Below are positions 2,722 through 40,167 of a stretch of DNA of 64,000 nucleotides, one piece after another. The DNA is from Elusimicrobiota bacterium (GTDB taxonomy: Bacteria > Elusimicrobiota > Elusimicrobia > UBA1565 > UBA9628), in the NCBI GenBank assembly GCA_016218545.1, contig JACRDQ010000038.1:66986-130985 (forward strand). The letters are read 5' to 3'. Made by a program: the position numbers and the translations under genes. Position 1 is the stretch's first letter. Each line of letters opens with the position of its first letter. The notes under the pieces are model-generated. The model saw nothing but the letters and a program-made list of their open reading frames with translations, did no database searches and was not told the origin of the DNA.

Positions 2722-2801
2722 ATGCTGCGTTTCGGGTGGGCAAGGCTGTTTCATGACTCTCGTCATACTTTCCCCTGGCGTTTGTGGTCTACTATAAAGG
2801 A

Positions 2802-3707
2802 ATGGTGCCAAGACCCTGGTCCCTGCTCCTCATCCTCGGCCTTGCCGGGTGCGGGAAGGATGAGGCCATTCCCACGGTCATCCTCTCGGACAAGGCTGTA
2901 GTGGAGAAGCCCGCCTTGCCTAGGGGAGAGGAACTGCGCTTCTCCGCGCCGGCCAGGCTCTCTCCCAAGAAGGCTTACAGCGAATACCAGGCGCTCTTCA
3001 GTCATGTGGCCAGGAGCCTGGGCAAGCGCGGTCACACCGTGACCCGCGAGACCTACGCGGAGAGCCTTTCCCTGCTGGAGCACCGCGAGATCGACGTTGC
3101 CTATCTCTGCGCCGCCAGTTATGTGATCGGCAAGTCCAAGTTCGGGGCCGAGATCCTTGCCGTGCCCGTGGTCAAAGGCAGGGCAGCGGACGCCTCCTGC
3201 CTCATCGTCCATAAGGAAAGTCCGGTCATGCGCTGGGAAGACCTCAAAGGGAGGTCCTTCGCGTTCACCGACCCCGACTCCAACGCAGGGTGGCTCGTGC
3301 CCGTGGACTTGCTCGCCTCCAAGGGCGTCTCCCCCCAGGTCTTCTTTTCCAAGACCATCTACACGCGCGCCCATGACAACTCGGTCAAGGCCGTGGCGAG
3401 CGGCCTGGTGGACGCCGCGGCCATTCATTGCAACGTGCTCGACGAGGTCCTAGAGGAGGCTCCATCGGCGGCGTCCCGGGTGCGGGTGGTCTGGAAGTCG
3501 GCGCATTTCGCCATGCCGCCCATCGCGGTCCATCCCGGGCTCGACCCTGCCTTGAAGGCGCGCCTGCGCGAGGCCTTCCTCGCCCTGCATCGGGCCCCGG
3601 AAGGCGCCAGGCTCCTGCGCAAGGCCGGAATCGAGCGCTTCACGGTGATAGACGACTCCGCCTACGAACCGATCCGCAGGATGCGCGCTGCCGTGGACCG
3701 GAGATGA
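2802..3707 (+). CDS. PhnD-like (phosphonate-type) ABC substrate-binding lipoprotein, with no cognate permease or ATPase nearby; a likely sensory co-receptor
   Basis: Start at the second Met. It is preceded by an aaagga RBS and gives the lipoprotein signal MVPRPWSLLLILGLAGCG. The body resembles the PhnD/SsuA periplasmic-binding fold (VAYLCAASYV, FAFTDPDSNAGW, RVVWKS). The stop overlaps the start of the downstream kinase gene. Confidence 0.65.
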   Translation: MVPRPWSLLLILGLAGCGKDEAIPTVILSDKAVVEKPALPRGEELRFSAPARLSPKKAYSEYQALFSHVARSLGKRGHTVTRETYAESLSLLEHREIDVAYLCAASYVIGKSKFGAEILAVPVVKGRAADASCLIVHKESPVMRWEDLKGRSFAFTDPDSNAGWLVPVDLLASKGVSPQVFFSKTIYTRAHDNSVKAVASGLVDAAAIHCNVLDEVLEEAPSAASRVRVVWKSAHFAMPPIAVHPGLDPALKARLREAFLALHRAPEGARLLRKAGIERFTVIDDSAYEPIRRMRAAVDRR

Positions 3708-5131
3708 TGGCTGCGCGGCGCGCAGGGGGGCTGAGCATCAGGGGCAGGCTCCTCCTGGGGTCCGCCGGGGTCATCCTGCTCTTCGGAGGTCTTGTGCTGG
3801 CAGGGCTCTACCGGGCTATGCTCGGCTTGTTCATGGAGGAGCTGGTCCGCAGGGGGTACGCCATCGCGGACACCCTGCTGGAGCCGTCCCAGAATCTCCT
3901 CCTGACGGAGGACTCCTTCGCGCTCCAGCAGGTCCTCCAGTCCTCGCTCAGCCGCCACCATGACGTGCGCTACGCGTTCGTGGCTGATGCCGAAGGCAGG
4001 GTCGTGTCTCATACGTTCATGGGAGGCTTCCCCAAAGGGCTTGACCGGGCGGTGCTGCTGGACCCCGGAGAGGCATCCCGCTCCCGTCCCGTGCGCACCG
4101 AGGAGGGCTTGATCTACGACGTGGGCGTGCCCTTGCAGGGCCTGGGGAGCATCCATGTGGGGATGCGGTCCGCCGAGGTCGCCCGCCGCGTCGTCAGGGA
4201 CACCATGGGCTGGGGCAGCACCGCCGCAGGGGCGCTCATGCTGGGCGCGGTGGTCATCTGGTGGCTGACCGGCCGCCTGGCCGCGCGCCTGAAGGATCTG
4301 GTGGGAGCGGCGGAGGAGGTGGGCGCGGGCAGGCTCGACGCGGTCGTGCAGGACCGCGGGGAGGACGAGGTGGGGCGCCTGGCCAGGGCCTTCAATGCCA
4401 TGACGCGGGACCTCAAGGAATACCAGGCCCGGGCCCTGAGGGCCGGGAAGCTCGCCGCCATCGGCGAGCTCGCCTCTTGCGTGGCCCATGAGATCAACAA
4501 CCCCCTCAATACGATGGGGGTTTGCGCCCAGGCCCTTCTTGAGCGGGCATCGAGCCCGGAGCTGCGCGCGTCCGCCGAGTTCTCCGACTTCCCGGAATAT
4601 CTCAAGACCATCGACAGCGAGGTGAGCCGCTGCAAAAGGATCACGTCCGAGCTCCTGCTCTTCGGACATCCGCGCGAGCCCCGCCTGGAGCCCGTGGACC
4701 TCAATGAGCTCGTCTCGGAGTCCCTCGGACTGCTCGAGCACAGGCTCCGGGGCGCGGAGGCGGCGGTGGAGACGGTCCTGGCCCCGGGGTTGCCGAGGCT
4801 CCATGCCGACTCGGACCAGCTCAAGCAGGTCCTCCTCAATCTCGTGGGAAACGCCCTCGATCACATCAGACCCGGCGGTCAGGTCCGGATCGCGACGGCC
4901 AAGCATGGCCGGGAGCTGGCCTTGAGCGTCACCGACGACGGGCCGGGCATCCCGCCCGAGCATCGCGACAAGGTCTTCGACCTCTTCTTCACCACGAAGA
5001 AGGCCGGCGCGGGCTCGGGGCTCGGCTTGGCGATCTGCCAGAGGATCGTCGACAGCCACGGGGGCCGCATCGCGGTCGAGAGCCGGCCGGGCCGGGGCGC
5101 TGTCTTCACCGTTTCCCTTCCCATCCGCTGA
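3704..5131 (+). CDS. Sensor histidine kinase with TM, HAMP, HisKA and HATPase domains
   Basis: The ATG at 3704 overlaps the upstream stop codon (gagATGAtgg). There is a TM region and a HAMP-like segment. The H-box is ELASCVAHEINNPLN. The ATPase N, G1 and G2 boxes are present (NLVGNALDHI, DDGPGIP, GSGLGLAICQ). The longer ORF given in the track (from 3428) is an out-of-context upstream extension. Confidence 0.8.
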   Translation: MMAARRAGGLSIRGRLLLGSAGVILLFGGLVLAGLYRAMLGLFMEELVRRGYAIADTLLEPSQNLLLTEDSFALQQVLQSSLSRHHDVRYAFVADAEGRVVSHTFMGGFPKGLDRAVLLDPGEASRSRPVRTEEGLIYDVGVPLQGLGSIHVGMRSAEVARRVVRDTMGWGSTAAGALMLGAVVIWWLTGRLAARLKDLVGAAEEVGAGRLDAVVQDRGEDEVGRLARAFNAMTRDLKEYQARALRAGKLAAIGELASCVAHEINNPLNTMGVCAQALLERASSPELRASAEFSDFPEYLKTIDSEVSRCKRITSELLLFGHPREPRLEPVDLNELVSESLGLLEHRLRGAEAAVETVLAPGLPRLHADSDQLKQVLLNLVGNALDHIRPGGQVRIATAKHGRELALSVTDDGPGIPPEHRDKVFDLFFTTKKAGAGSGLGLAICQRIVDSHGGRIAVESRPGRGAVFTVSLPIR

Positions 5132-5262
5132 GGGGCGTTCCGCCCAAGTCGGATTCAAGTCATCTTCTTTCCTTGAGGGCCGTCATTCTTATCATCCATG
5201 GCGTTTGGGACAATGTGCTCAATCGGAGCGGCGCCGGGAAGGCCGCTGGGATGGGAGGAGCG

Positions 5263-6165
5263 ATGAACGTGATGTCGACGCGCATGAGGATGTCAGGCTC
5301 GATCGTCATTTTGGGATTGGCGCTGGGGGTCGTGCCGGTGGCCTTCGGCGCGGAGGCTCCGGCTGCCGCCGGGACCGAGAAGTGCCAGTCATGCCACGCG
5401 GACGTCGCCAAGGCGTTCGGGTCGACCAAGCACGGCAAGGCCGCCTACTACGGCGTGCAGGGAGCCGGCTGCGTGTCGTGCCACGGCGAAAGCGAGAAGC
5501 ACGCGGGCTCCGGGGATAAGGCGGACGCCTTCAACCCCGCGAAGGCCGACCCCGAGAAGGTCAACGAGACCTGCCTGGAGTGCCACAGCAAGACCAAGGC
5601 CCTGATGTTCTGGAATGGGAGCGCCCACTCGAACAACGAGCTCGGCTGCGTCGCCTGCCATTCGGTCCACGGCGGGAAGGACAAGCTCCTCAAGGCCGCG
5701 GACGACAAGGCCGTGTGCTTCACCTGCCACAAGAACGTCCGGGCCGCGATGTTCGCCCGCTCCAAGCATCCGATGCGGGATTCCTCCAATCCCAAGGGCG
5801 AGGGCAAGATGACGTGCGCCTCCTGCCACAACCCGCACGGCTCCGAGTCCGAGAAGCTCATCAGCGCGAAGTCCGTCAACGACAAGTGCTATGAGTGCCA
5901 CACGGAGAAGAAGGCCCCGCTCCTCTGGGAGCACTCCCCGGTCAAGGAGGACTGCCTCACCTGCCACGCCGCTCACGGCGCGGCCAATGACAAGCTCCTC
6001 ACGGTCCGCCCTCCCAGGCTCTGCCAGTCGTGCCACATGCAGGGGCGCCACCAGAGCGGCACCTTGGACGTCAACTCCGTGTACGCGATCGGCAGGTCCT
6101 GCTTGAACTGCCATCCGATGGTGCACGGCTCCAACAGCCCGTCGGGCCCCGTCCTTCAGCGGTGA
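5263..6165 (+). CDS. Periplasmic decaheme c-type cytochrome of the MtrA/MtoA/PioA family
   Basis: Ten CXXCH motifs are present: CQSCH, CVSCH, CLECH, CVACH, CFTCH, CASCH, CYECH, CLTCH, CQSCH and CLNCH. The mature part is about 300 aa, which is MtrA/MtoA size. An N-terminal signal peptide is present (MNVMSTRMRMSGSIVILGLALGVVPVAFGA). The start could equally be 5248. Confidence 0.85.
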   Translation: MNVMSTRMRMSGSIVILGLALGVVPVAFGAEAPAAAGTEKCQSCHADVAKAFGSTKHGKAAYYGVQGAGCVSCHGESEKHAGSGDKADAFNPAKADPEKVNETCLECHSKTKALMFWNGSAHSNNELGCVACHSVHGGKDKLLKAADDKAVCFTCHKNVRAAMFARSKHPMRDSSNPKGEGKMTCASCHNPHGSESEKLISAKSVNDKCYECHTEKKAPLLWEHSPVKEDCLTCHAAHGAANDKLLTVRPPRLCQSCHMQGRHQSGTLDVNSVYAIGRSCLNCHPMVHGSNSPSGPVLQR

Positions 6166-6217
6166 CCGGGGTCGACGCTGAAAGATCATGACCTATAGAA
6201 AAGGAAGGGTGGATACC

Positions 6218-8656
6218 ATGGAGGCTACAATGAGAGGTAAGGGCATGAGCCGCAAGACATTCCTTGGGGCCCTGCTGGCCGTCGCGCTCGCCACGGGTGC
6301 CCAGGCGGCCAATGACGTCATGGACGGCAAGCTCACGGTCGCAGTCGACGCCCAGGTGGGCGTCCAGGCACGGCAGACCGACGACTCCGTCGAGAAGTTC
6401 AACGAGTACCGCGACGTCCAGACGGGCTTCTTCCTCGACGACTTCCGCTTCTCCGCCGATGGGACCGATAGCCCGTACTATGTCGGGTTCAGGGCAAGGC
6501 ATGCGCTCCGGGCCGACGAGACCTATAAGCTCGGTTTCGGCCGGCACGGGCAATACGGCGTGCGCTTCTCCTATGACAGCCTGCCGCACAACTTCGCGCA
6601 AGGCAAGCTGCTCTACAGCGGCGTGGGGACCGGGGACCTGGTCATCGCGGACCAGCTCCAGGCGGACCTGCAGGCTCTCGAGCAGACCGAGAACGACCGC
6701 GACGCCGCGGCCAACAAGGTCAATCCCCTCGTGGACGTCACGGGTGAGGACGCCCTGACCAAGGGCATCGTGGACGGCCTCTACTCGACCAGGGACTTCA
6801 CGGTCCTCAAGCTCAAGAGGGAGAAGGCCAGCCTGGCCTTCGACTACGACGTCGCCAACGACGTCAAGACCTGGATGAAGGTCTCCCACGAGAAGCGCGA
6901 CGGGGCCAGGACCATCAATGCCGGCTCCTACGAGCGGTGGGATCAGGGCGCTGCCGGCTTGACCCACCTCAAGGACCTCTTCACCATCTCGGGCGCGGAG
7001 CTGGCTGAGCCGGTGGACTACAGGACCATCGTGTTCGCGGTCGGAGCCGGCGTCTATAAGAAGGCTTGGCTCGCGGACGCGGAATACTCGTTCACGGACT
7101 TCAACAACGACTACTCGGCCTTGCGCTGGGACAATGCCCTGAGGAGCACGGACGAGATCGGCAGGACCGCGGCGGCGGGCGGGGCCACGCTCGGCAACAA
7201 CTACAACAGGGGCCGGTTCGTCCGGGGCCAGCTCGGCCTTCCGCCGGACAGCCAGTCCCACCAGGTGAACTTCAACGGCTCGGTGGAGCTTCCCCTGCAC
7301 AGCAGGTTCGCGGCCAGCCTGGGTTACGGACTGATCGAGCAGAACCAGGCCTTCAACCCGTTCTCGCTCAACACGGCGATCTCTCCCAGGGCCGGCCTGG
7401 ACGTGACCAACCCGGCCGCGCTCCCGGAGAGCGGTCTCCACGGCGCGGTCACGACCCTGACCCAGAGCTACGTGCTCTCGAGCAAGCCGATCGAGAGCCT
7501 TTCTCTCGCGGCGAAGTACCGCTTCTACAAGTACAAGAACGACACCAGGAGGATCTCGCTGCCCGGCTACGCGGCCTGGGGAGAGAGCGATTGGCGCACC
7601 GTCAGGAGCGACGCGGGCACGGCCGTGCAGAACGACACGCTCGGGTTCACGAAGCACACTGTGGACTTCTCGGCCGACTACAAGGTCGCCAAGCCCCTGA
7701 CCGTGGGCGTGGAGACCGGCGTCGAGTACTGGGATCGCGACGAGGTTCGGGTGGACAAGACCAAGGAGTTCAGCGTGGGCGGCAGCTTCATCTACAGGCC
7801 CGCGGACTTCGCGAGCTTCAAGGCCGCCTACAAGTTCGCCAAGCGCACGGACACGGGCTATATCGAGGGAGCGGTCAAGAAGAACCCGGAGGCCGCCGGC
7901 TTGCGGAACTTCGACTGGGCCGAGCGCACGCGCAACAAGGCCGACGGCAGGCTCCTGCTCTACCCGTCCGACTCCGTTTCCGTGGGCTTCTCCGGCCAGT
8001 TCCAGCGCGACCAGTTCGCCAAGGACACCCGGTTCGGGCTCAAGTCGGTCGAGGCGTCGAACGGGTCCGTGGACGTCTCCTACAGCCCGTCCGAGACGCT
8101 GAACATGTTCGCGAGCTATACCCGGGAGCACCGGCGGAGCAAGATCAAGAATGGGGCCAAGGACGATGCCTTCAACGCGGCCGGGCCTCTAGACGACAGC
8201 TTCACGACCAGCAACTTCAATCCGTACAACGAGTGGAACAGCAACATCTCCGAGGACGTGGACACCCTGGGGTTCGGGGCCAACGTGGCGGTCATCCCGG
8301 AGAAGCTCGAGCTCGACGCGAGCTACAACTTCTCCCACTCGAGGACCGACACCTATACATATAATCCGAACGGCCAGGCGAAGCTCGGCAACGGCGAGGC
8401 CAAGGACTGGCCGCTCGTCAAGAACAGCCTGCACGAGATCAAGGCCGACCTGGGGTACAAGTTCACCAAGAGCATCAAGGCAGGGACTCGCTACATGTAC
8501 GAGGGGTTCCACCTGACGGACTTCGCTTGGGAGAACCTCCAGCCTTACATGCCCGGCTACAGCGCGGAGAACTCGACCCGCTATCTCTTCGCGGACGCGA
8601 CCTACCGGAATTACGACTCGCACGTCGGGATGGTGTACCTGAACTATTCGTTCTGA
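6218..8656 (+). CDS. MtrB/PioB/MtoB-family outer-membrane beta-barrel, about 810 aa. It would be the porin partner of the upstream decaheme cytochrome.
   Basis: The gene follows the decaheme gene after about 50 nt. Signal peptide ...FLGALLAVALATGAQA. The body is Tyr/Gly/Asp-rich with alternating amphipathic strands and ends in ...YLNYSF, the C-terminal Phe typical of outer-membrane proteins. The size matches PioB/MtoB. Start is ambiguous between 6188, 6218 and 6230. Confidence 0.6.
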   Translation: MEATMRGKGMSRKTFLGALLAVALATGAQAANDVMDGKLTVAVDAQVGVQARQTDDSVEKFNEYRDVQTGFFLDDFRFSADGTDSPYYVGFRARHALRADETYKLGFGRHGQYGVRFSYDSLPHNFAQGKLLYSGVGTGDLVIADQLQADLQALEQTENDRDAAANKVNPLVDVTGEDALTKGIVDGLYSTRDFTVLKLKREKASLAFDYDVANDVKTWMKVSHEKRDGARTINAGSYERWDQGAAGLTHLKDLFTISGAELAEPVDYRTIVFAVGAGVYKKAWLADAEYSFTDFNNDYSALRWDNALRSTDEIGRTAAAGGATLGNNYNRGRFVRGQLGLPPDSQSHQVNFNGSVELPLHSRFAASLGYGLIEQNQAFNPFSLNTAISPRAGLDVTNPAALPESGLHGAVTTLTQSYVLSSKPIESLSLAAKYRFYKYKNDTRRISLPGYAAWGESDWRTVRSDAGTAVQNDTLGFTKHTVDFSADYKVAKPLTVGVETGVEYWDRDEVRVDKTKEFSVGGSFIYRPADFASFKAAYKFAKRTDTGYIEGAVKKNPEAAGLRNFDWAERTRNKADGRLLLYPSDSVSVGFSGQFQRDQFAKDTRFGLKSVEASNGSVDVSYSPSETLNMFASYTREHRRSKIKNGAKDDAFNAAGPLDDSFTTSNFNPYNEWNSNISEDVDTLGFGANVAVIPEKLELDASYNFSHSRTDTYTYNPNGQAKLGNGEAKDWPLVKNSLHEIKADLGYKFTKSIKAGTRYMYEGFHLTDFAWENLQPYMPGYSAENSTRYLFADATYRNYDSHVGMVYLNYSF

Positions 8657-8826
8657 GCCCGCCCAGGCGGGCAGATTCGCCGGTGCGGCCTGGGGCTCGC
8701 GAGAGCGGGCCCCAGGCTCCGGGGTCCCCCAGGAGCGCCCGTCTTCCGAATCCGGAAGAGCCGGCTCCTCTCTTTTCCAGCCGCGGCCGGACTCGGGATT
8801 TGCCGTCCGGCCTCTGAACGGGTATA

Positions 8827-10191
8827 GTGTCCATGGATGAAGAGCGCGGGTGGTACGGCGTGAGGAAGCTCTCGGTCCTCGTCGTCGACGACGAGGAGGG
8901 CTTCTGCCGCTGCCTCGGCAAGGAGTTCGGCCGCAAGGGCTACGCTGTCTCAGCCGCGCATGACGGCAAGGCCGCCTTGGAGGCCCTCGCGAAGGCCCAG
9001 GCGGACGTCATGCTGCTCGACGTCGTCCTTCCCCGGTTGAGCGGCACGGAGGTCCTCAAGAGGGTCCGGCGGGACCATCCGCGCACCCAGGTCATCATGC
9101 TGACCGGAAACGCCACGGTCGAGACCGCCATCGAGTCCATGAAGCAGGGCGCCTTCGACTACCTGACCAAGCCCGTGAACCTCGCGGAGCTCTGCCTGGT
9201 GGTGGAGAGGGCCTTCGAGGCGACGCGGGTCCGCGCGGAGAACGAGGCCTTGCGCTGGGAGCTGGGCCGGAGGACGAGGTTCGACGAGTTCGTGGGCAAG
9301 CACGCCTCCGTCGTGGAGATCAGGAAGATGGTCTCCAGGGTCGCGGAGACCGACTCTCCGGTCCTCATCTGCGGCGAGACCGGCACGGGCAAGGAGCTGG
9401 TGGCCCGGATGCTCCATCACGAGAGCAGGCGGTCCAAGGCCCGCTTCCTCGCGGTCAACTGCGCCGCGTTCCAGGAGAACCTGCTCGAGACCGAGCTTTT
9501 CGGCCACGAGAAGGGCGCGTTCACGGACGCCGGGGCGCGCAAGCCCGGCCTGGTGGAGCTGGCGGACGGCGGGACCCTTTTCCTCGATGAGATCGGGAAC
9601 ATGAGCCCCGCGGTCCAGGCCAAGGTCCTGCGCCTGCTCGACGCCGGGGAGTACCGCAGGGTGGGCGGCACCGACGACCTGAAGAGCGCCTGCCGCGTGG
9701 TCAGCGCCACCAACCAGGACCTCGGCAAGGCCATCAAGGACGGCCGTTTCCGGGAGGACCTCTACTACAGGCTCAACGTCGTGATGATCAAGACCCCGCC
9801 CCTGCGCGAGCGCAGGGAGGACGTGCCCCTGCTCGTGGAGCACTTCCTCGACAAGGTGCATGCCTTGCAGACCCGGGGCCGCAAGACCATGAGCCGTCCT
9901 GCCCTGGACCTGATCCTGGGCCATCCCTGGCCGGGGAACGTCCGGGAGCTCGAGAACGCGGTGGAGCGGGCCGTCATCCTGTCCGAGGGCTCGGTCATCG
10001 AGCCCTCGGCCCTGTGCCTGCCGTGCCTGGAGGCGGGGCGCAGCGTGGGCGACGCTCTGGCCGATGTCGAGAAAGCCCACATCCTCGCTGTGCTCGGCCG
10101 CACCGGGGGGAACAAGAGCCAGGCGGCGGCCATCCTCAAGGTCGACGTCAAGACGGTCTACAACAAGCTCAAGGAATTCGGGATCGCGTAG
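8827..10191 (+). CDS. Sigma54-dependent response regulator of the NtrC family (REC, AAA+ and Fis-type HTH domains)
   Basis: A receiver domain is present (VLVVDDEEGF..., D in LLDVVLP). The Walker A motif is GETGTGKE. GAFTGA-type and ESELFGHEKGAFTDA segments are present. The C-terminal HTH is AAILKVDVKTVYNKLKEFGI. Confidence 0.85.
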   Translation: MSMDEERGWYGVRKLSVLVVDDEEGFCRCLGKEFGRKGYAVSAAHDGKAALEALAKAQADVMLLDVVLPRLSGTEVLKRVRRDHPRTQVIMLTGNATVETAIESMKQGAFDYLTKPVNLAELCLVVERAFEATRVRAENEALRWELGRRTRFDEFVGKHASVVEIRKMVSRVAETDSPVLICGETGTGKELVARMLHHESRRSKARFLAVNCAAFQENLLETELFGHEKGAFTDAGARKPGLVELADGGTLFLDEIGNMSPAVQAKVLRLLDAGEYRRVGGTDDLKSACRVVSATNQDLGKAIKDGRFREDLYYRLNVVMIKTPPLRERREDVPLLVEHFLDKVHALQTRGRKTMSRPALDLILGHPWPGNVRELENAVERAVILSEGSVIEPSALCLPCLEAGRSVGDALADVEKAHILAVLGRTGGNKSQAAAILKVDVKTVYNKLKEFGIA

Positions 10192-10223
10192 GGAATATTT
10201 CCACTGTCCGTGGAAATATTCCC
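10191..10223. promoter_or_regulatory. Perfect 14-bp inverted repeat GGGAATATTTCCAC-N5-GTGGAAATATTCCC. It is a candidate enhancer (UAS) for the adjacent sigma54 activator and/or a terminator.
   Basis: Read directly. It begins at the stop codon of the NtrC-like gene. It lies about 100-130 bp upstream of the candidate -24/-12 promoter at 10323-10338. Confidence 0.45.
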
Positions 10224-10322
10224 GGCCGCTTGGGCGCGCCAGCGCCGGGCCTCCCCTTCGTTCCGCCGGTTTCTCGTCGGAGACCGGGCCAGCCCGGTCT
10301 CCCCGGTCTTCGGTCATCCCAT

Positions 10323-10338
10323 TGGCAGGATTGATGCC
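10323..10338 (+). promoter_or_regulatory. Candidate sigma54 (-24/-12) promoter TGGCAG-gattg-ATGC upstream of the FNR-like gene
   Basis: The sequence ttGGcaggattgaTGCca has GG and GC spaced exactly as in the TGGCAC-N5-TTGC consensus. A GGAGG RBS lies at 10355-10359 and the ATG is at 10371. Confidence 0.35.
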
Positions 10339-10370
10339 AGTATCGAAGATGACCGGAGGCATCATCAACC

Positions 10371-11138
10371 ATGGGATACGACAGGACTGCCGCGCCTAAA
10401 TTCGTCTGCCCTCAGCCCGCTTCAGCCGGCTGCGCGGCCTGCACCTGCGAGAAGCGCTGTTTCCTCGGCCTTCTGGACCCGGACCAGCGCCGACGCTTCA
10501 GGGCCGAGAGGATCCACCGGCTCTACCGGTCCAGGCAGATCATCTTCAGCCCAGGGGACGCGCCGCAGGGCCTCATGATCCTCTGCCGCGGCTCGGTCCG
10601 GATCGCCTTCACCACGGAGCAGGGCCGCCAGGTCACGGTGGGCTACGCTTCCTGCGGGGAACTGCTGGGCGAGGCGGCCTATGTGGCAGGCAAGCCGCAC
10701 GCCTTCACGGCCGAGGCTCTGGGGGACTCCTTCGTGAGCTTCCTTCCCAAGGCCCTCTCGGACGAGCTCCTGGCGGAATCTCCCAAGCTGGCCCGCCGCG
10801 TGGCCGAGGACTCCTGCGGAAGGTACTGCGCGACCGCCAAGCTCGCGTCCAACTGGATCCTCAAGTCCGCCGACGCCAAGCTGGCCGAGTTCCTCCTTTC
10901 GGATGAGGCTGGAGCGGTCCCGGACATGCCCTGCAAGCCCCATCAGCGCCTGAGCCGGAAAAGCCTTTCCGAGCACGTGGGACTTGCGCCTGAGACCGTG
11001 ATCCGGAGGCTCAGCGACTTCAAGAGGCGCGGCCTGGTCCGGTTCGCGGGCAAGGCCGTGGAGATCGTTGACCGCGGAGCGCTCGCTGCCGTGGCCTCGG
11101 ACCACGGCCAGGCCGCCGCCTCGGCGATCTGGACCTAG
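10371..11138 (+). CDS. CRP/FNR-family transcription factor with an N-terminal Cys cluster (FNR-like redox sensor)
   Basis: The N-terminus is CPQPASAGCAACTCEKRC, with five Cys in a C-x7-C-x2-C-x-C-x3-C arrangement. A cNMP-binding beta-roll follows (IIFSPGDAPQGLMILCRGSVRI). The C-terminal HTH is SRKSLSEHVGLAPETVIRRLSDF. Confidence 0.8.
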   Translation: MGYDRTAAPKFVCPQPASAGCAACTCEKRCFLGLLDPDQRRRFRAERIHRLYRSRQIIFSPGDAPQGLMILCRGSVRIAFTTEQGRQVTVGYASCGELLGEAAYVAGKPHAFTAEALGDSFVSFLPKALSDELLAESPKLARRVAEDSCGRYCATAKLASNWILKSADAKLAEFLLSDEAGAVPDMPCKPHQRLSRKSLSEHVGLAPETVIRRLSDFKRRGLVRFAGKAVEIVDRGALAAVASDHGQAAASAIWT

Positions 11139-33010: not shown

Positions 33011-33039
33011 ATTATAACAGTTGATGACGCCGGTGTCAG
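33011..33039 (-). promoter_or_regulatory. Sigma70-like promoter CTGACA-N17-TATAAT (extended TGtTATAAT) placed for a leaderless DsbA-like transcript
   Basis: On the minus strand the sequence reads CCTGACACCGGCGTCATCAACTGTTATAATAGCGGCATG. The -10 ends 6 nt before the ATG. The -35 lies within the right arm of the 57-bp palindrome. Confidence 0.4.
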
Positions 33040-33091
33040 GCATTCGAAAGATCCGAAAACCTTTGGTTTTCGGATCTTTCGAATGCCTGAC
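33035..33091. repeat. 57-bp perfect hairpin (27-bp arms, 3-nt loop). It would serve as a terminator for the subtilisin gene and overlaps the -35 of the DsbA-like promoter.
   Basis: GTCAGGCATTCGAAAGATCCGAAAACC-ttt-GGTTTTCGGATCTTTCGAATGCCTGAC, read directly. It lies immediately downstream, on the minus strand, of the S8 protease stop at 33100. Confidence 0.9.
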
Positions 33092-36250: not shown

Positions 36251-37159
36251 ATGAGAAGAGCCGCACTCGTCATCCCGGCCGCAGTCATGGCGTTCGCCCT
36301 GCTGGCGGCCACGGTCCGCGCCGAAGCCCCTGCGTTGGATTTCGACCAGGGCGTCAACGCCTCGGACGTCCTGAAGGCGGCCAAGGCGGCGGCGGCTGAC
36401 TCGAAGGTCGGCAAGGACGTGGTCGTCCGGCCGCTCTACCGCCGCTACGACCGCGACTGCGTCAACTTCACGATCGGCGCCGACGACGCGCCTCAGACCG
36501 AGGCCGTGTGGCTGCGCAGCACCGAGTGGGTGCAGGAGTGCCACCCGACGGGTCCCAACGGCGCTCAGACCTGCTATGACCGGCCGGGCTATACCTACAG
36601 GGAGCGCGCCTCCGTGGCCATCCGCGACCGCGGCCGGCTCTTCCCGTGGGAGTACGACAGCTTCGACGTCTGCCTCGAGGGCCCGTGGCTCAACATCTGG
36701 TCCCGCGAGACCGCCTACGAGTACAAGACCGTGCGGGGCGGGACGTACAACGGCGGCTTCGTGCTCTCCCCGGTCAAGAAGCTCCGCATGAAGCCCGACC
36801 CCGCCGGCATCCGCGTCCAGGCTCTGAGCCCGCAGCTGGCCGCGCTCTTCCGCGACAAGTGGGCCTCCTACTACGCGGGCGAGACCGTCGTGCTCTCGCT
36901 CAAGCTGCGCAAGTCCGTGCCGGGCTGGTTCGACGCGACTTTGCTCGAGCGTGAGCTCTCGTTCGCCGCCGCCGAGACCTACGGGGTGGACTTCATGGCC
37001 TTCGCCGGCGAGTTCTCGCAGAAGCTCGAGGCGGGCAAGCCCTACTACGTCGAGTACTCCTTCAAGAGGCTCAGCAAGATCTCGACGGACAAGCTCCAGA
37101 AGGCGGGGGAGTCCGACAAGGTCGTCTATCAGCCGGCCGCCGCGGCCCTGGGCCGTTAG
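36251..37159 (+). CDS. Secreted hypothetical protein, 302 aa, with 4 Cys
   Basis: The signal peptide is MRRAALVIPAAVMAFALLAATVRAEA. There is no homology recognisable by eye. Confidence 0.4.
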   Translation: MRRAALVIPAAVMAFALLAATVRAEAPALDFDQGVNASDVLKAAKAAAADSKVGKDVVVRPLYRRYDRDCVNFTIGADDAPQTEAVWLRSTEWVQECHPTGPNGAQTCYDRPGYTYRERASVAIRDRGRLFPWEYDSFDVCLEGPWLNIWSRETAYEYKTVRGGTYNGGFVLSPVKKLRMKPDPAGIRVQALSPQLAALFRDKWASYYAGETVVLSLKLRKSVPGWFDATLLERELSFAAAETYGVDFMAFAGEFSQKLEAGKPYYVEYSFKRLSKISTDKLQKAGESDKVVYQPAAAALGR

Positions 37160-37229
37160 CTCCGGCGGGAAGGCCGCAAAACGAAAGGCCCCTCCGGGCC
37201 GAGCCCGGAGGGGCCTTCCCGTCCCCGCC

Positions 37230-37640: not shown

Positions 37641-40100
37641 ATGACCACCCCGCTGCCGCTCGTCCTCGCCGCTCTCATCGGACTCTCCGGCCCGTGCGCG
37701 GCGCAGGGCGGGTCTTCTCCGGGTCCGGGCGACATCCCCGAGGACGTCCTGGAGTTGGTCGGCGGAGACGTCCCGGCGGAGACCACGGTCGAGCTCCCGG
37801 AGGAGGCCAAGGACCTCCCTCCTGAGCAGGACGTGACCTTCGATCCGAAGGAGAGGGAATCCTGGCAGGGCTGGGTGGCCTTCGAGACCTCGGCCAAGGA
37901 GAAGCTCAAGCGCCTGGAGTCTTTGAGCGACGAAGAGCTCTCCGGCCTGGAAGCCGAGATCATCAGGTTCACGGGCCAGGGCGTCAAGGACAAGGTCCTT
38001 TCCGGAGCGATCAACAAGCTCAACGAGCGCATCATCCAGCTGAGGAACACGCGGGCGCAGGAGGTCGCCGCCAAGCCGCCGACGACCCAGGCGGAGGCGG
38101 AGCAGCGCAACCGGCTGGACCGCGTCAGCGGGATGTTCGGCGAGATGTACAAGGGCATGGCCGTCCAGGAGATGAGGACGGACCCCCAGAGCCCTGAAGG
38201 CTTCTCCAGGTACGGTTTTGCGCTCGTCATGGAGGGGAAATACCGGCAGGCCGCGCCGGTGCTCGAGCGCGCCGTGCGGCTGGGGGCCAAGGACAGCCGG
38301 ACCTTCTCATCCTACGGCACCGCGGCCTTCCACCTCGGCGACTTCGCCCTGGCGCGCAGCGCAGCCGGCCGCGCGTTGAAGATCGACCCGCAGAACGACG
38401 CGGCCTTCGCGGTGATGCGGCTCTCCGAGGGCAAGAACCCGGCGGTGACCCTGCCCTCGGTCCTGACCGGAGGAGGGAGCGGGGAGGGGGTCTTCTCCGC
38501 GGCCGCCGGGAACGAGGCCGTGTCCGGAGCTCCTTCGGTGCAGGCCGGGGCTCAGCCGGCAGCGGCCGGCCGGGCTCCCATGGTCCTGAGGTCCCCGGAA
38601 GCGGGAAAGTCCTCCGCGTTCGCCAAGGAGGCTGCCGCGGCCCTGGCGGTCAAGGATTATCTCAGGGCCATCGAATCCGCGACCAGGGCCATCGAGGCCA
38701 ACGACGGCAATGCCCAGGCATGGAACTACCGCGCCATCGCGAACAGCAAGCTCGGCCGCTACGATGCCGCGGTCAGGGACGCGAGCCACGCCCTGGCCCT
38801 GGCGCCCAAGAATCCCGCGGCTCTCCACACCCGGTCCTGGGCCTTGAACAAGCTGGGCCGCTTCCAGGAGGGGCTGACGGACGCCGATGAGGTCCTGGCG
38901 CGGGAGCCGGACAACGCCTTCGCCCTGCAGAACCGCGCCTTCTCCCTGGCCGGGCTCGGGGACCGCAGGGGCATGCTCGCCGCGCTCAAGCGCGCGGCCG
39001 AGATCGAAAAGCGCTTCCAGGCCCGCTACGAGAAGGCCGTCCAGGTCCCCGAGAACGCGGACGTGCTCTTCCTCTTCGACCAGGACCCCGGGCTCAAGCC
39101 CGGGACCGCCCCTGAGGCCGAGGCCGGAGCCAAGGCCGGGCGGGGCCTCCTCATCCCGATCCTGGCCGGGGCCGGATTCCTGGCCGCCCTGGCCGCGGCG
39201 CTCTCCCTGGCCCGGTGGTGGAAGACCTCCTCTTCGGGCCTCGGCGCGTCCGGGAACGGCGGGGGCGCGGTCCTGCGGGCCAGGGGCGAGGCCGGTGCGT
39301 TCTGGAAGAAATACAAGCTGGTGCGCGAGGTCGGCAACGGCGGCATGGGCGTGGTCTACGAGGCCGAGGACACCTCCCTGGGACGGCGCGTGGCGATCAA
39401 GAAGATGCGCGACGAGATCCGGCTCGACCGCAAGGAGCGCGAGCGCTTCCTCCAGGAGGCCCGGACCGTGGCCTCGCTCCGGCACCCGAACATCGTGGAG
39501 ATCTACTCCATCGTCGAGGACGCAGGAGAGGTCTACCTCGTCTTCGAGTTTGCGGAAGGCAAGACCCTCCACGAGGTCCTCTCCGACGGCGCTCCGCTCC
39601 CCTTCGACGCGGCCCTGCGCGTGCTCAAGGACGCGTGCGAGGCCGTGGACTGCGCCCATCGCGCCAGGATCGTTCACCGGGACATCAAGCCCTCGAACAT
39701 CATGGTCACGGACAGCGGGCCGGCCAAGGTCATGGATTTCGGGGTGGCGCGGCAGGCCAAGGACGCGGCCACCAGGAGCACCGCGACCTCGGTGGCGGGC
39801 ACGCCTCCGTACATGGCTCCCGAGTCCGAGCAGGGCACGGTCGGGCCCCGGGGGGACGTCTACGGCCTGGCCGTGGTGTTCTACGAGATGCTGACCGGAA
39901 AGCTGCCTTTCGCCGGGACCGGGGCCGGCATGCTGCTCAACAAGATGAACCGCAAGTTCGACGCGCTCTCCCAGGCTGCGCCGGGCCTGCCCGCGGGCAT
40001 CGACGCGGTGATGTCGCGGGCCCTGGCTCCGGAGCCTGGCGAGAGGTTCAAGACCGCGGGAGAGTTCCTCGCCGCGGTCCAAGGGCTCAAGGCGTCCTGA
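37641..40100 (+). CDS. Receptor-type Ser/Thr protein kinase #1: signal peptide, extracytoplasmic TPR domain, TM helix, cytoplasmic Hanks-type kinase domain
   Basis: TPR repeats are present (AWNYRAIANSKLGRYDAAVRDASHALALAP...). The TM helix is LLIPILAGAGFLAALAAALSLA. Kinase motifs: VGNGGMGVVYEA, AIKKM, HRDIKPSN, DFGVAR, PPYMAPE. Confidence 0.85.
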   Translation: MTTPLPLVLAALIGLSGPCAAQGGSSPGPGDIPEDVLELVGGDVPAETTVELPEEAKDLPPEQDVTFDPKERESWQGWVAFETSAKEKLKRLESLSDEELSGLEAEIIRFTGQGVKDKVLSGAINKLNERIIQLRNTRAQEVAAKPPTTQAEAEQRNRLDRVSGMFGEMYKGMAVQEMRTDPQSPEGFSRYGFALVMEGKYRQAAPVLERAVRLGAKDSRTFSSYGTAAFHLGDFALARSAAGRALKIDPQNDAAFAVMRLSEGKNPAVTLPSVLTGGGSGEGVFSAAAGNEAVSGAPSVQAGAQPAAAGRAPMVLRSPEAGKSSAFAKEAAAALAVKDYLRAIESATRAIEANDGNAQAWNYRAIANSKLGRYDAAVRDASHALALAPKNPAALHTRSWALNKLGRFQEGLTDADEVLAREPDNAFALQNRAFSLAGLGDRRGMLAALKRAAEIEKRFQARYEKAVQVPENADVLFLFDQDPGLKPGTAPEAEAGAKAGRGLLIPILAGAGFLAALAAALSLARWWKTSSSGLGASGNGGGAVLRARGEAGAFWKKYKLVREVGNGGMGVVYEAEDTSLGRRVAIKKMRDEIRLDRKERERFLQEARTVASLRHPNIVEIYSIVEDAGEVYLVFEFAEGKTLHEVLSDGAPLPFDAALRVLKDACEAVDCAHRARIVHRDIKPSNIMVTDSGPAKVMDFGVARQAKDAATRSTATSVAGTPPYMAPESEQGTVGPRGDVYGLAVVFYEMLTGKLPFAGTGAGMLLNKMNRKFDALSQAAPGLPAGIDAVMSRALAPEPGERFKTAGEFLAAVQGLKAS

Positions 40101-40167
40101 CCGGGCTCGAGACAAAGAGGAAGCCCCCGGCGCGAGCCGGGGGCTTCCTCTTCGGCGCGGACCCGGG

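What the first reader, a model, noticed from the sequence alone, without database searches (positions are those of the whole stretch)
10191..10371. Inverted repeat plus candidate sigma54 promoter between the sigma54 activator gene and the FNR-like gene
A perfect palindrome GGGAATATTTCCAC-N5-GTGGAAATATTCCC lies about 100-130 bp upstream of a TGGCAG-N5-ATGC element with correct -24/-12 GG/GC spacing. That is the usual distance for an enhancer-binding-protein UAS. This would place the FNR-like regulator under control of the adjacent NtrC-family activator, forming a cascade. The palindrome could alternatively be only a terminator. Its stem is AT-rich for this genome and has no U-tract.
Basis: seen in the sequence. 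Interest (0 to 1): 0.5.

Follow-up and report, generated by a model that had tools for sequence, protein, structure and literature searches.

The report
Enhancer sites plus sigma-54 promoter
The palindrome is most likely a pair of binding sites for the neighbouring sigma-54 activator protein, and with a conserved -24/-12 promoter it probably switches on the FNR-like regulator gene; this is an ordinary regulatory layout, seen here in an uncultured Elusimicrobia genome.

Summary
There is a perfect 14-bp-arm inverted repeat at 10191-10223 and a TGGCAG-N5-ATGC element at 10323-10337.

The palindrome is really two copies of a self-palindromic 13-mer, GGGAA-N3-TTCCC, 20 bp apart. The same unit lies within 45 nt of the stop codon of the orthologous NtrC/AtoC-type activator gene in 8 of 11 related loci. 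This holds whether the next gene is FNR-like or mtrA-like. It is absent at that position from 80 paralogue loci.

Each regulatory region carries a correctly oriented GG-N10-GC element 58-140 bp downstream of the units. In five FNR-like promoters, TGGCAG..TGATGC is invariant while the spacers are only 26-42% identical.

The terminator-only rival is weak for this window, which has no U-tract. In some relatives, however, the unit sits at the tip of a real terminator hairpin.

Extra conserved pieces are a palindromic box near -71 and GGTCATC/GATGACC flanking the promoter.

It is a new member of a known kind; AtoC/atoDAEB is the closest analogue. Interest is modest.

The parts
8827..10191 (+). NtrC/AtoC-type enhancer-binding response regulator (receiver, AAA+ sigma-54 interaction domain with a GAFTDA loop, Fis-type HTH). 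The public annotation starts at 8833.
   Evidence: Pfam matches. 100% match to an Elusimicrobia MAG protein. Receiver residues D21/D22/D65/T93/K115 and the GAFTDA loop are seen in the alignment. Best NCBIfam hit is AtoC, below its cut-off.
10191..10203 (.). Enhancer unit 1, GGGAATATTTCCA (GGGAA-N3-TTCCC type). Centre is at -152 from the predicted +1.
10211..10223 (.). Enhancer unit 2, TGGAAATATTCCC. Centre is at -132, 20 bp (about two helical turns) from unit 1. Together the two units form the 14-bp-arm inverted repeat 10191-10223.
   Evidence: The same -152/-132 geometry is found in L004 and L001.
10273..10283 (.). Degenerate copy (CTCGTCGGAGA) of a conserved palindromic box, TCCTCG-N-CGAGGA. 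The box starts at -75 to -77 in six loci. Its binding partner is unknown.
   Evidence: L007 has a similar box at -80. The motif is common in coding DNA, so only its fixed position is informative.
10279..10302 (+). GC-rich hairpin GGAGACCGGGC-CA-GCCCGGTCTCC between the enhancer and the promoter. No U-tract follows and it is not conserved in relatives. It may act as a weak read-through barrier.
   Evidence: RNA fold gives -23.8 kcal/mol, z = -3.05. Not called a terminator.
10312..10318 (.). GGTCATC, left arm of a conserved inverted repeat that brackets the promoter.
   Evidence: (I6).
10323..10337 (+). Sigma-54-type promoter core TGGCAGGATTGATGC (GG at -25/-24, GC at -13/-12).
10348..10354 (.). 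GATGACC, right arm of the bracketing repeat. It includes the predicted transcription start (about 10349) and an invariant ATGA.
10355..10359 (+). Shine-Dalgarno GGAGG, 11 nt before the ATG.
   Evidence: Sequence.
10371..11138 (+). CRP/FNR-family regulator with a Cys-rich N-terminus (C13, C21, C24, C26, C30). This is the proposed target gene.

Best explanation
The 33-bp palindrome right after the activator gene is an upstream activating sequence made of two dyad-symmetric GGGAA-N3-TTCCC sites, 20 bp apart on the same face of the helix.

Proposed mechanism:
- The response regulator encoded at 8827-10191 is phosphorylated by the cluster's histidine kinase (3428-5131), which probably works with the PhnD-like periplasmic binding protein (2784-3707).
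- The activated regulator binds the two sites as dimers and assembles into the active AAA+ ring.
- It contacts sigma-54 RNA polymerase held in a closed complex at TGGCAG-N5-ATGC (10323-10337) by DNA looping.
- ATP hydrolysis opens the promoter, so transcription of the FNR-like gene starts near 10349.

This puts the FNR-like regulator one tier below the two-component system.

Shown here: the sequence elements, their conservation, and their fixed geometry in related loci.

Inferred: which protein binds the units, sigma-54 dependence, the start site, and the signal sensed.
For: 1. The palindrome is non-random and unique in the window.

2. An unbiased survey of all 5-Nn-5 palindromes in 11 related regulatory regions ranks GGGAA-N3-TTCCC first (9 of 11 regions) and TGGCA-N7-TGCCA next (8 of 11). 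Shuffled regions never exceed 5.

3. A unit lies 0-45 nt after the orthologous activator's stop codon in 8 of 11 loci. The same test gives 0 of 80 paralogue loci, and the background rate is about 2e-5 per bp.

4. The units occur in front of three kinds of target. These are the FNR-like gene (window, L004, L003, L001), mtrA-mtrB (L009, L010, L092, L095, L096), and an unknown/Fe-S/molybdopterin oxidoreductase operon (L007).

5. Paired units are 20-23 bp apart. They lie at -152/-132 in the window, L004 and L001, and at -82 to -169 elsewhere.

6. Every one of 10 regions has a forward TGG[CA]-N8-TGC. The per-region chance is 0.04-0.10.

7. Footprinting across the five FNR-like promoters gives these pairwise identities: -24/-12 core 0.92, start region 0.87. 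The units score 0.69-0.74 in the three loci that carry both. Spacers score 0.26-0.42.

8. The activator has an intact receiver, an AAA+ domain and an HTH. Its GAFTDA loop variant is listed as compatible with activation in PMC4641369.

9. The one orthologue with the same synteny but no units (L005) has a changed recognition helix: SVRTLYNRLR instead of DVKTxYNKLK.

10. No sigma-70-like promoter or Rfam RNA family is found in the region.
Against: - There are no transcript or binding data.
- The sigma-54 core match alone is at chance level in this window. Its -12 region (ATGCC) departs from TTGCW.
- No rpoN gene lies within the 64 kb.
- L005 and L094 lack units after the activator gene.
- In L009, L095, L096 and L092 the unit forms the tip of a hairpin followed by a T-run. 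There, a terminator role could explain its position.
- The motif was defined from the same loci used to count it, and the loci share ancestry, so the p-values are inflated.
- A second conserved palindrome near -71 has no assigned binder and could be the true or an additional activator site.
Confidence: 0.7

Rival explanations
1. The palindrome acts only at the RNA level. It would be a 3'-end hairpin that terminates or stabilises the activator mRNA, with no role as a protein-binding enhancer.
For: - It starts at the stop codon and folds strongly (-30.1 kcal/mol, z = -5.0).
- In L009, L095 and L096 the homologous unit caps a long GC stem followed by a T-run and preceded by an A-run. This is the classic shape of an intrinsic terminator. 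L092 is similar.
Against: - There is no U-tract in the window, L004, L001, L006 or L010, and the scan calls no terminator.
- The sequence of the hairpin tip is conserved, while the lower stems differ or are absent. This is the reverse of what a terminator needs.
- Each unit is self-palindromic. In L003 and L092 a single unit occurs.
- The units also follow moaA (L001) and a cytochrome gene (L007), always upstream of a -24/-12 element at a conserved distance.
Confidence: 0.12
2. The units are operators for a different DNA-binding protein, such as the FNR-like protein itself acting on its own gene or a global regulator. The activator would then bind elsewhere, for example at the -71 box.
For: - The binder is inferred from adjacency only.
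- A second conserved palindrome sits at a fixed place near -71 in six to seven loci.
- L005 keeps that box and the promoter but has no units.
Against: - The units occur in five loci whose fetched DNA holds no FNR-like gene, whereas the activator gene is adjacent in 8 loci.
- A better candidate operator for the FNR-like protein exists: ATGAC-N4-GTCAT, in FNR-box format. It has 3 perfect copies in 109 kb of FNR-like loci against 2 in 1.44 Mb of controls.
- The mtrA promoters of L092, L095 and L096 have a unit but no box.
Confidence: 0.13
3. Both elements are chance features with no function, and the FNR-like gene is simply co-transcribed with the activator gene.
For: - The sigma-54 core match is at chance frequency in the window.
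- No proven terminator separates the two genes.
Against: - The palindrome is far beyond chance.
- Both elements are conserved in position and sequence across diverged loci, while the spacers are not.
Confidence: 0.03

Closest known systems
AtoSC / atoDAEB of Escherichia coli (AtoC enhancer)
   Same: - An NtrC-family response-regulator gene is followed, on the same strand, by an intergenic palindrome of two inverted sites that the regulator binds to drive a sigma-54 promoter of the next operon (PMC3118216).
- AtoC is the best NCBIfam hit of this activator (447.5 bits).
   Different: - The score is below the AtoC cut-off of 714, so this protein is not an AtoC orthologue.
- The sites are 13-mers (GGGAA-N3-TTCCC) 20 bp apart, not two 20-bp sites.
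- The target is a regulator gene rather than a catabolic operon.
- A PhnD-like binding protein accompanies the kinase.
- Binding has not been tested.
NtrC enhancer at glnAp2 (enteric bacteria)
   Same: Tandem dyad-symmetric activator sites lie more than 100 bp upstream of a GG-N10-GC promoter, and activation is by looping and ATP hydrolysis (established knowledge, from memory).
   Different: - The recognition sequence differs from the NtrC site (TGCACC-N5-GGTGCA type).
- The spacing is about two helical turns rather than three.
- The target has no link to nitrogen control.
Enhancer-binding-protein regulons predicted in Desulfovibrio vulgaris (PMC4641369)
   Same: - Activators usually lie next to their sigma-54 target operons.
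- Some bind AT-rich palindromes.
- GAFTDA is an accepted loop variant.
   Different: The phylum, the motif and the target genes all differ. No equivalent regulon is described there.
Control of porin-cytochrome genes by CRP/FNR-family regulators (FixK on pioABC in Rhodopseudomonas palustris; CRP on mtr genes in Shewanella). Recalled from memory, not checked here.
   Same: A CRP/FNR-family regulator is encoded beside MtrA/MtrB-type genes. A perfect FNR-format box (ATGAC-N4-GTCAT) lies upstream of the cluster at 2753-2766.
   Different: Here the FNR-like gene itself appears to be sigma-54 dependent. The downstream step from the FNR-like protein to the cluster is only a lead.

Membership tests
Sigma-54 (-24/-12) promoter | GG and GC dinucleotides separated by 10 nt, within TGGCAC-N5-TTGCW | tested here: met
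   TGGCAG-GATTG-ATGC at 10323-10337 has the correct spacing and two departures from the consensus.
Sigma-54 (-24/-12) promoter | The match is better than chance | tested here: inconclusive
   Alone it is not: 44 matches against 51 expected in the window. With conservation it is: the element is invariant in 5 FNR-like promoters, and a forward element is present in 10 of 10 related regions.
Sigma-54 (-24/-12) promoter | The genome encodes sigma-54 (rpoN) | not testable with these tools
   No rpoN homologue lies in the 64-kb window. Related locus L006 encodes a Sigma54_DBD protein next to the orthologous system.
Sigma-54 (-24/-12) promoter | Transcription starts about 12 nt after the GC and depends on rpoN and an activator | not testable with these tools
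   This needs 5'-RACE or dRNA-seq and genetics.
Enhancer (UAS) of an NtrC-family activator | Dyad-symmetric sites, usually two or more, about 80-200 bp upstream of the promoter | tested here: met
   Two GGGAA-N3-TTCCC units lie at -152 and -132. The geometry is the same in L004 and L001, and units lie at -82 to -169 in the other loci.
Enhancer (UAS) of an NtrC-family activator | A cognate activator with an AAA+ sigma-54 interaction domain, a GAFTGA-type loop and a C-terminal HTH | tested here: met
   Sigma54_activat E = 4.6e-67 and HTH_8 E = 7.9e-12. The loop reads GAFTDA, a variant accepted in PMC4641369.
Enhancer (UAS) of an NtrC-family activator | The site co-occurs with orthologues of the activator and not with paralogues | tested here: met
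   8 of 11 orthologue loci against 0 of 80 paralogue loci.
Enhancer (UAS) of an NtrC-family activator | The activator binds the site directly | not testable with these tools
   This needs EMSA, footprinting or DAP-seq.
Intrinsic (Rho-independent) terminator | A GC-rich stem-loop immediately followed by a U-tract | tested here: not met
   The stem is 57% A+T, no T-run follows, and the scan finds none. The feature is met in relatives L009, L095 and L096.
FNR proper (O2-sensing Fe-S CRP/FNR regulator) | cNMP-binding-like fold plus Crp-type HTH | tested here: met
   PF00027 and PF13545 both match.
FNR proper (O2-sensing Fe-S CRP/FNR regulator) | Reaches the curated FNR family score and has the FNR-type N-terminal Cys ligands | tested here: not met
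   NCBIfam Fnr score is 50.1 bits against a cut-off of 228. An N-terminal Cys-rich stretch (5 Cys in residues 13-30) is conserved in homologues, but with a different spacing. The protein is therefore FNR-like, not FNR.

The most novel reading that the evidence does not exclude
A conserved three-part sigma-54 module may be the output of a binding-protein/kinase/activator system that governs respiratory genes across groundwater Elusimicrobia.

- The module has three parts: paired GGGAA-N3-TTCCC sites, a fixed palindromic box near -71, and the -24/-12 core.
- The genes it would govern are of the porin-cytochrome (MtrAB/DmsEF-like) and molybdopterin-oxidoreductase kinds.
- In this genome the signal would pass through a Cys-rich FNR-like intermediary. 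That intermediary would feed back on the sensor/mtrAB operon through a perfect ATGAC-N4-GTCAT box at 2753-2766.
- In some lineages the enhancer unit would double as the tip of the activator gene's own terminator hairpin.
Probability: 0.3. Interest if true: 0.5.

Novelty: new member of a known kind. Interest (0 to 1): 0.3.

Why it matters
It gives a testable cis-regulatory code for an uncharacterised activator family in an uncultured phylum. The code has a site motif, a fixed geometry and a promoter.

It also links that family to genes for outer-membrane electron transfer (a DmsE-family decahaem cytochrome plus an MtrB/PioB porin) and to a redox-type FNR-like regulator.

With the motif in hand, the regulon can be predicted in any Elusimicrobia genome, and the system can be rebuilt in a heterologous host. 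The mechanism itself is textbook, so the value lies in annotation and hypothesis-building rather than in new concepts.

Tried and rejected
- **Genome-contig scan with the whole activator protein.** These loci were used only as negative controls.
- **Metagenome-contig scan with TGGCAG-N3-TGATGC-N11-ATGA.** It filled with chance hits. None had the units, the GTCATC arm or an FNR-like N-terminus.
- **Rfam search of 9900-10700.** No matches.
- **Sigma-70 promoter and terminator scan of 9900-10700.** Nothing found.
- **rpoN search of the window by tblastn.** Nothing found.
- **FNR-type box at the FNR-like gene's own start (ATGACCGGAGGCAT, 10349-10362).** Only the left half is conserved in orthologues, so autoregulation there is not supported.
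- **Genome-wide search for the -71 box.** The motif is common in coding DNA (47 matches against 9 expected). Only its fixed position is informative.
- **Sigma-54 promoter or units upstream of mtrA or the binding-protein gene in the window.** None found.
- **Literature searches for this system in Elusimicrobia or for sigma-54 control of MtrA.** Nothing relevant.
Full report
**Source and gene context.** The window matches an Elusimicrobia metagenome-assembled genome; both flanking proteins are 100% identical to NCBI MAG entries. G+C is about 67%. The genes on the + strand are, in order:
- a PhnD-like periplasmic binding protein (2784-3707);
- a HAMP/sCache histidine kinase (to 5131);
- a DmsE-family decahaem cytochrome (5263-6165);
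- an MtrB/PioB porin (6188-8656);
- an NtrC/AtoC-type response regulator with a sigma-54 interaction domain (8827-10191);
- a CRP/FNR-family protein (10371-11138).

**Checking the observation.**
- The inverted repeat GGGAATATTTCCAC-N5-GTGGAAATATTCCC is exactly at 10191-10223, and its first base is shared with the TAG stop codon.
- No perfect repeat with arms of 14 or more arose in 60 Markov simulations of the window.
- GGAA-N3-TTCC occurs nowhere else in the 64 kb.
- TGGCAG-GATTG-ATGC lies at 10323-10337 with GG-N10-GC spacing, 117 bp from the palindrome centre. GGAGG is at 10355-10359 and the ATG at 10371.
- By itself the sigma-54 core match is not significant: 44 matches with up to 2 mismatches against 51 expected.
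- No sigma-70-like promoter, canonical terminator or Rfam family is found in the region.

**What the palindrome is made of.** Each arm is itself a near-palindrome (I9/I10). The repeat is best read as two copies of a 13-bp dyad, GGGAA-N3-TTCCC, centred at 10197 and 10217, which is 20 bp or about two helical turns apart.

**Related loci fetched.** The FNR-like protein has few close relatives. Their loci, and those of the activator's orthologues (57-71% identity), were fetched.

**Position of the unit in relatives.** A unit with at least 9 of 10 core matches lies 0-45 nt after the activator's stop codon in 8 of 11 orthologue loci:

| Locus | Unit(s) after the stop codon |
|---|---|
| window | 2 units |
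| L004 | GGGAATATTTCCC plus an N2 variant |
| L006 | GGGAAAAATTCCA plus a weaker second unit |
| L009 | GGGAAATATTCCC |
| L010 | GGGAAAGATTCCC plus GGGAGAATCTCCC |
| L092 | TGGAATAATTCCC |
| L095 | GGGAAAATTTCCC |
| L096 | GGGAAAATTTCCC |

The background rate in 1.4 Mb of control DNA is about 2e-5 per bp. None of 80 paralogous activator loci (40-48% identity) has a unit at that position.

**Unbiased motif survey.** A survey of every 5-Nn-5 palindrome across 11 regulatory regions puts GGGAA-N3-TTCCC first (9 of 11) and TGGCA-N7-TGCCA, the -24/-12 core, next (8 of 11). Shuffled regions never exceed 5.

**Independence from the downstream gene.** The gene after the units differs between loci:
- the FNR-like gene in the window, L004 and L003;
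- mtrA-mtrB in L009, L010, L092, L095 and L096.

In L001 the units precede the FNR-like gene although the upstream gene is moaA. In L007 a pair of units (TGGTGAAATTCCA and TGGAAAAATTCCA, 22 bp apart) precedes a third kind of operon.

**The promoter.** All ten full regions contain a forward TGG[CA]-N8-TGC; L009 has two in tandem. The chance per region is 0.04-0.10.
- In front of mtrA the elements are canonical, for example TGGCTGAAATGTTGCC, TGGCGGAAACGTTGCC and TGGATGGGCTGTTGCA.
- In the five FNR-like promoters, TGGCAG..TGATGC is invariant.

**Geometry.** Unit centres lie at -152/-132 (window), -152/-131 (L004) and -153/-133 (L001) from the predicted start, and between -82 and -169 elsewhere.

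**Footprinting.** Pairwise identity across the five FNR-like promoters is shown below.

| Block | Pairwise identity |
|---|---|
| -24/-12 core | 0.92 |
| start region | 0.87 |
| box near -71 | 0.72 |
| GGTCATC | 0.71 |
| units (three loci with both) | 0.69-0.74 |
| spacers | 0.26-0.42 |

**The activator.** It has the receiver active-site residues, an AAA+ domain and a Fis-type HTH. Its sigma-54 contact loop reads GAFTDA, a variant listed as compatible with activation in a Desulfovibrio regulome study (PMC4641369).

The orthologue in L005 has the same synteny as the window but no units. It is also the one with a changed recognition helix, SVRTLYNRLR instead of DVKTxYNKLK. At the corresponding place (about -149) it carries a different 7-N3-7 palindrome, TGCCGGC-CAT-GCCGGCA. 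This is suggestive co-variation, not proof.

**Terminator rival.** As RNA the palindrome folds well (-30.1 kcal/mol, z = -5.0), but it has no U-tract.
- In L009, L095 and L096 the second unit forms the tip of a long GC stem flanked by an A-run and a T-run, which is a convincing intrinsic terminator. L092 is similar.
- A terminator role for the element is therefore real in some relatives and cannot be excluded here.
- However, what is conserved across loci is the sequence of the tip, while the lower stem varies or is missing.
- Single self-palindromic units occur in L003 and L092.
- The units also follow genes other than the activator gene.

These points fit a DNA-binding site that some lineages have built a terminator around. 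They do not fit a plain terminator.

**Other pieces in the interval.**
1. A GC-rich hairpin at 10279-10302 (-23.8 kcal/mol) has no U-tract and is not conserved.
2. A palindromic box, TCCTCG-N-CGAGGA, is degenerate in the window (CTCGTCGGAGA, 10273-10283). It starts at -75 to -77 in the window, L004, L003, L001, L005 and L010, and at -80 in L007. Its binder is unknown. The motif is common in coding DNA, so only its position is informative.
3. GGTCATC (10312-10318) and GATGACC (10348-10354) bracket the promoter in four loci. The invariant ATGA at the predicted start is an ATG.

**A lead beyond the finding.** A perfect FNR-format palindrome, ATGAC-N4-GTCAT, lies at 2753-2766 upstream of the binding-protein gene. 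Its centre is 41.5 bp before the position 7 nt downstream of a TACTAT hexamer.
- A two-mismatch copy lies upstream of mtrA at 5173-5186.
- L001 has two perfect intergenic copies next to respiratory operons.
- In total there are 3 perfect copies in 109 kb of FNR-like loci, against 2 in 1.44 Mb of controls.

This box is a candidate operator for the FNR-like protein. It is untested and is not conserved upstream of the binding-protein gene in other loci.

**Comparison with known systems.** The closest analogue is AtoSC/atoDAEB. There the regulator gene is followed by an inverted palindrome of two sites that AtoC binds to drive a sigma-54 promoter (PMC3118216). AtoC is also the best NCBIfam hit for this activator, but it scores well below the cut-off. 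The NtrC glnAp2 enhancer is the general paradigm (from memory).

**Verdict.** The layout here is therefore ordinary. What is new is the specific motif, its geometry and its targets in an uncultured phylum. The finding is a new member of a known kind, of modest interest.

**Searches that did not help.** These were the genome-contig scan (only paralogues), the metagenome pattern scan (chance hits) and two literature searches.

Noticed in passing
window 2753-2766 and 5173-5186; L001 402-415 and 15440-15453: A perfect FNR-format palindrome, ATGAC-N4-GTCAT, lies upstream of the binding-protein gene in class-II-like geometry to TACTAT (2790-2795). A two-mismatch copy lies upstream of mtrA. L001 has two perfect intergenic copies beside respiratory operons. 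There are 3 perfect copies in 109 kb against 2 in 1.44 Mb of controls. It is a candidate operator of the FNR-like protein.
   Followed up: partly
window 10273-10283; L004 5003, L003 41, L001 7894, L005 8471, L010 7442, L007 3661: A palindromic box (TCCTCG-N-CGAGGA, or ATCTCCGACGGAGAT in L010) starts at a fixed -75 to -80 from the predicted start in seven loci, between the enhancer units and the promoter. Its binder is unknown.
   Followed up: partly
window 10312-10318 and 10348-10354; window 10349-10399: GGTCATC and GATGACC bracket the -24/-12 core in the window, L004, L003 and L001. The invariant ATGA at the predicted start is an ATG. It opens a 16-codon upstream ORF here and 6-7 codons in L004 and L003, and it is the annotated in-frame start in L005.
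   Followed up: partly
window 10279-10302: A GC-rich hairpin (11-bp arms) lies between the enhancer and the promoter. It has no U-tract and is not conserved in relatives.
   Followed up: partly
window 2784-10191 compared with L009, L010, L092, L095 and L096: Gene order differs between lineages. In most Elusimicrobia relatives mtrA-mtrB follow the binding-protein/kinase/activator genes and carry the units plus a canonical sigma-54 promoter. In the window and L005, mtrA-mtrB sit between the kinase and activator genes and have no sigma-54 element of their own.
   Followed up: partly
L005 8391-8407: TGCCGGC-CAT-GCCGGCA lies at about -149, where the other loci carry GGGAA units. This is the locus whose activator has a changed recognition helix.
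   Followed up: partly
L009 about 3630-3645, L092 about 2630-2645, L095 about 2500-2515, L096 about 2625-2640: GG-N10-GC elements (for example GGCCGTTTTGTTGCT) lie upstream of the binding-protein gene, which suggests sigma-54 autoregulation of the sensor operon in that clade. L009 also has two tandem promoter copies before mtrA (7443 and 7466).
   Followed up: no
L006 812-1621: A gene with a Sigma54_DBD domain lies directly upstream of the orthologous binding-protein/kinase/activator genes.
   Followed up: no
window 33035-33091: A perfect inverted repeat with 27-bp arms and a 3-nt loop, 52% A+T, lies between what look like convergent genes. It is unusually long for a terminator.
   Followed up: no
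window 37185-37217 and 40115-40152: Two GC-rich perfect inverted repeats (15-bp and 17-bp arms) lie just after ORFs 36251-37159 and 37641-40100. They are terminator-like.
   Followed up: no
L004 4824-4836; L040 4404-4416: The coding sequence for the activator's HTH motif G-N-K-S (GGGAAYAAATCCC) happens to resemble the enhancer unit. This is probably coincidence.
   Followed up: no
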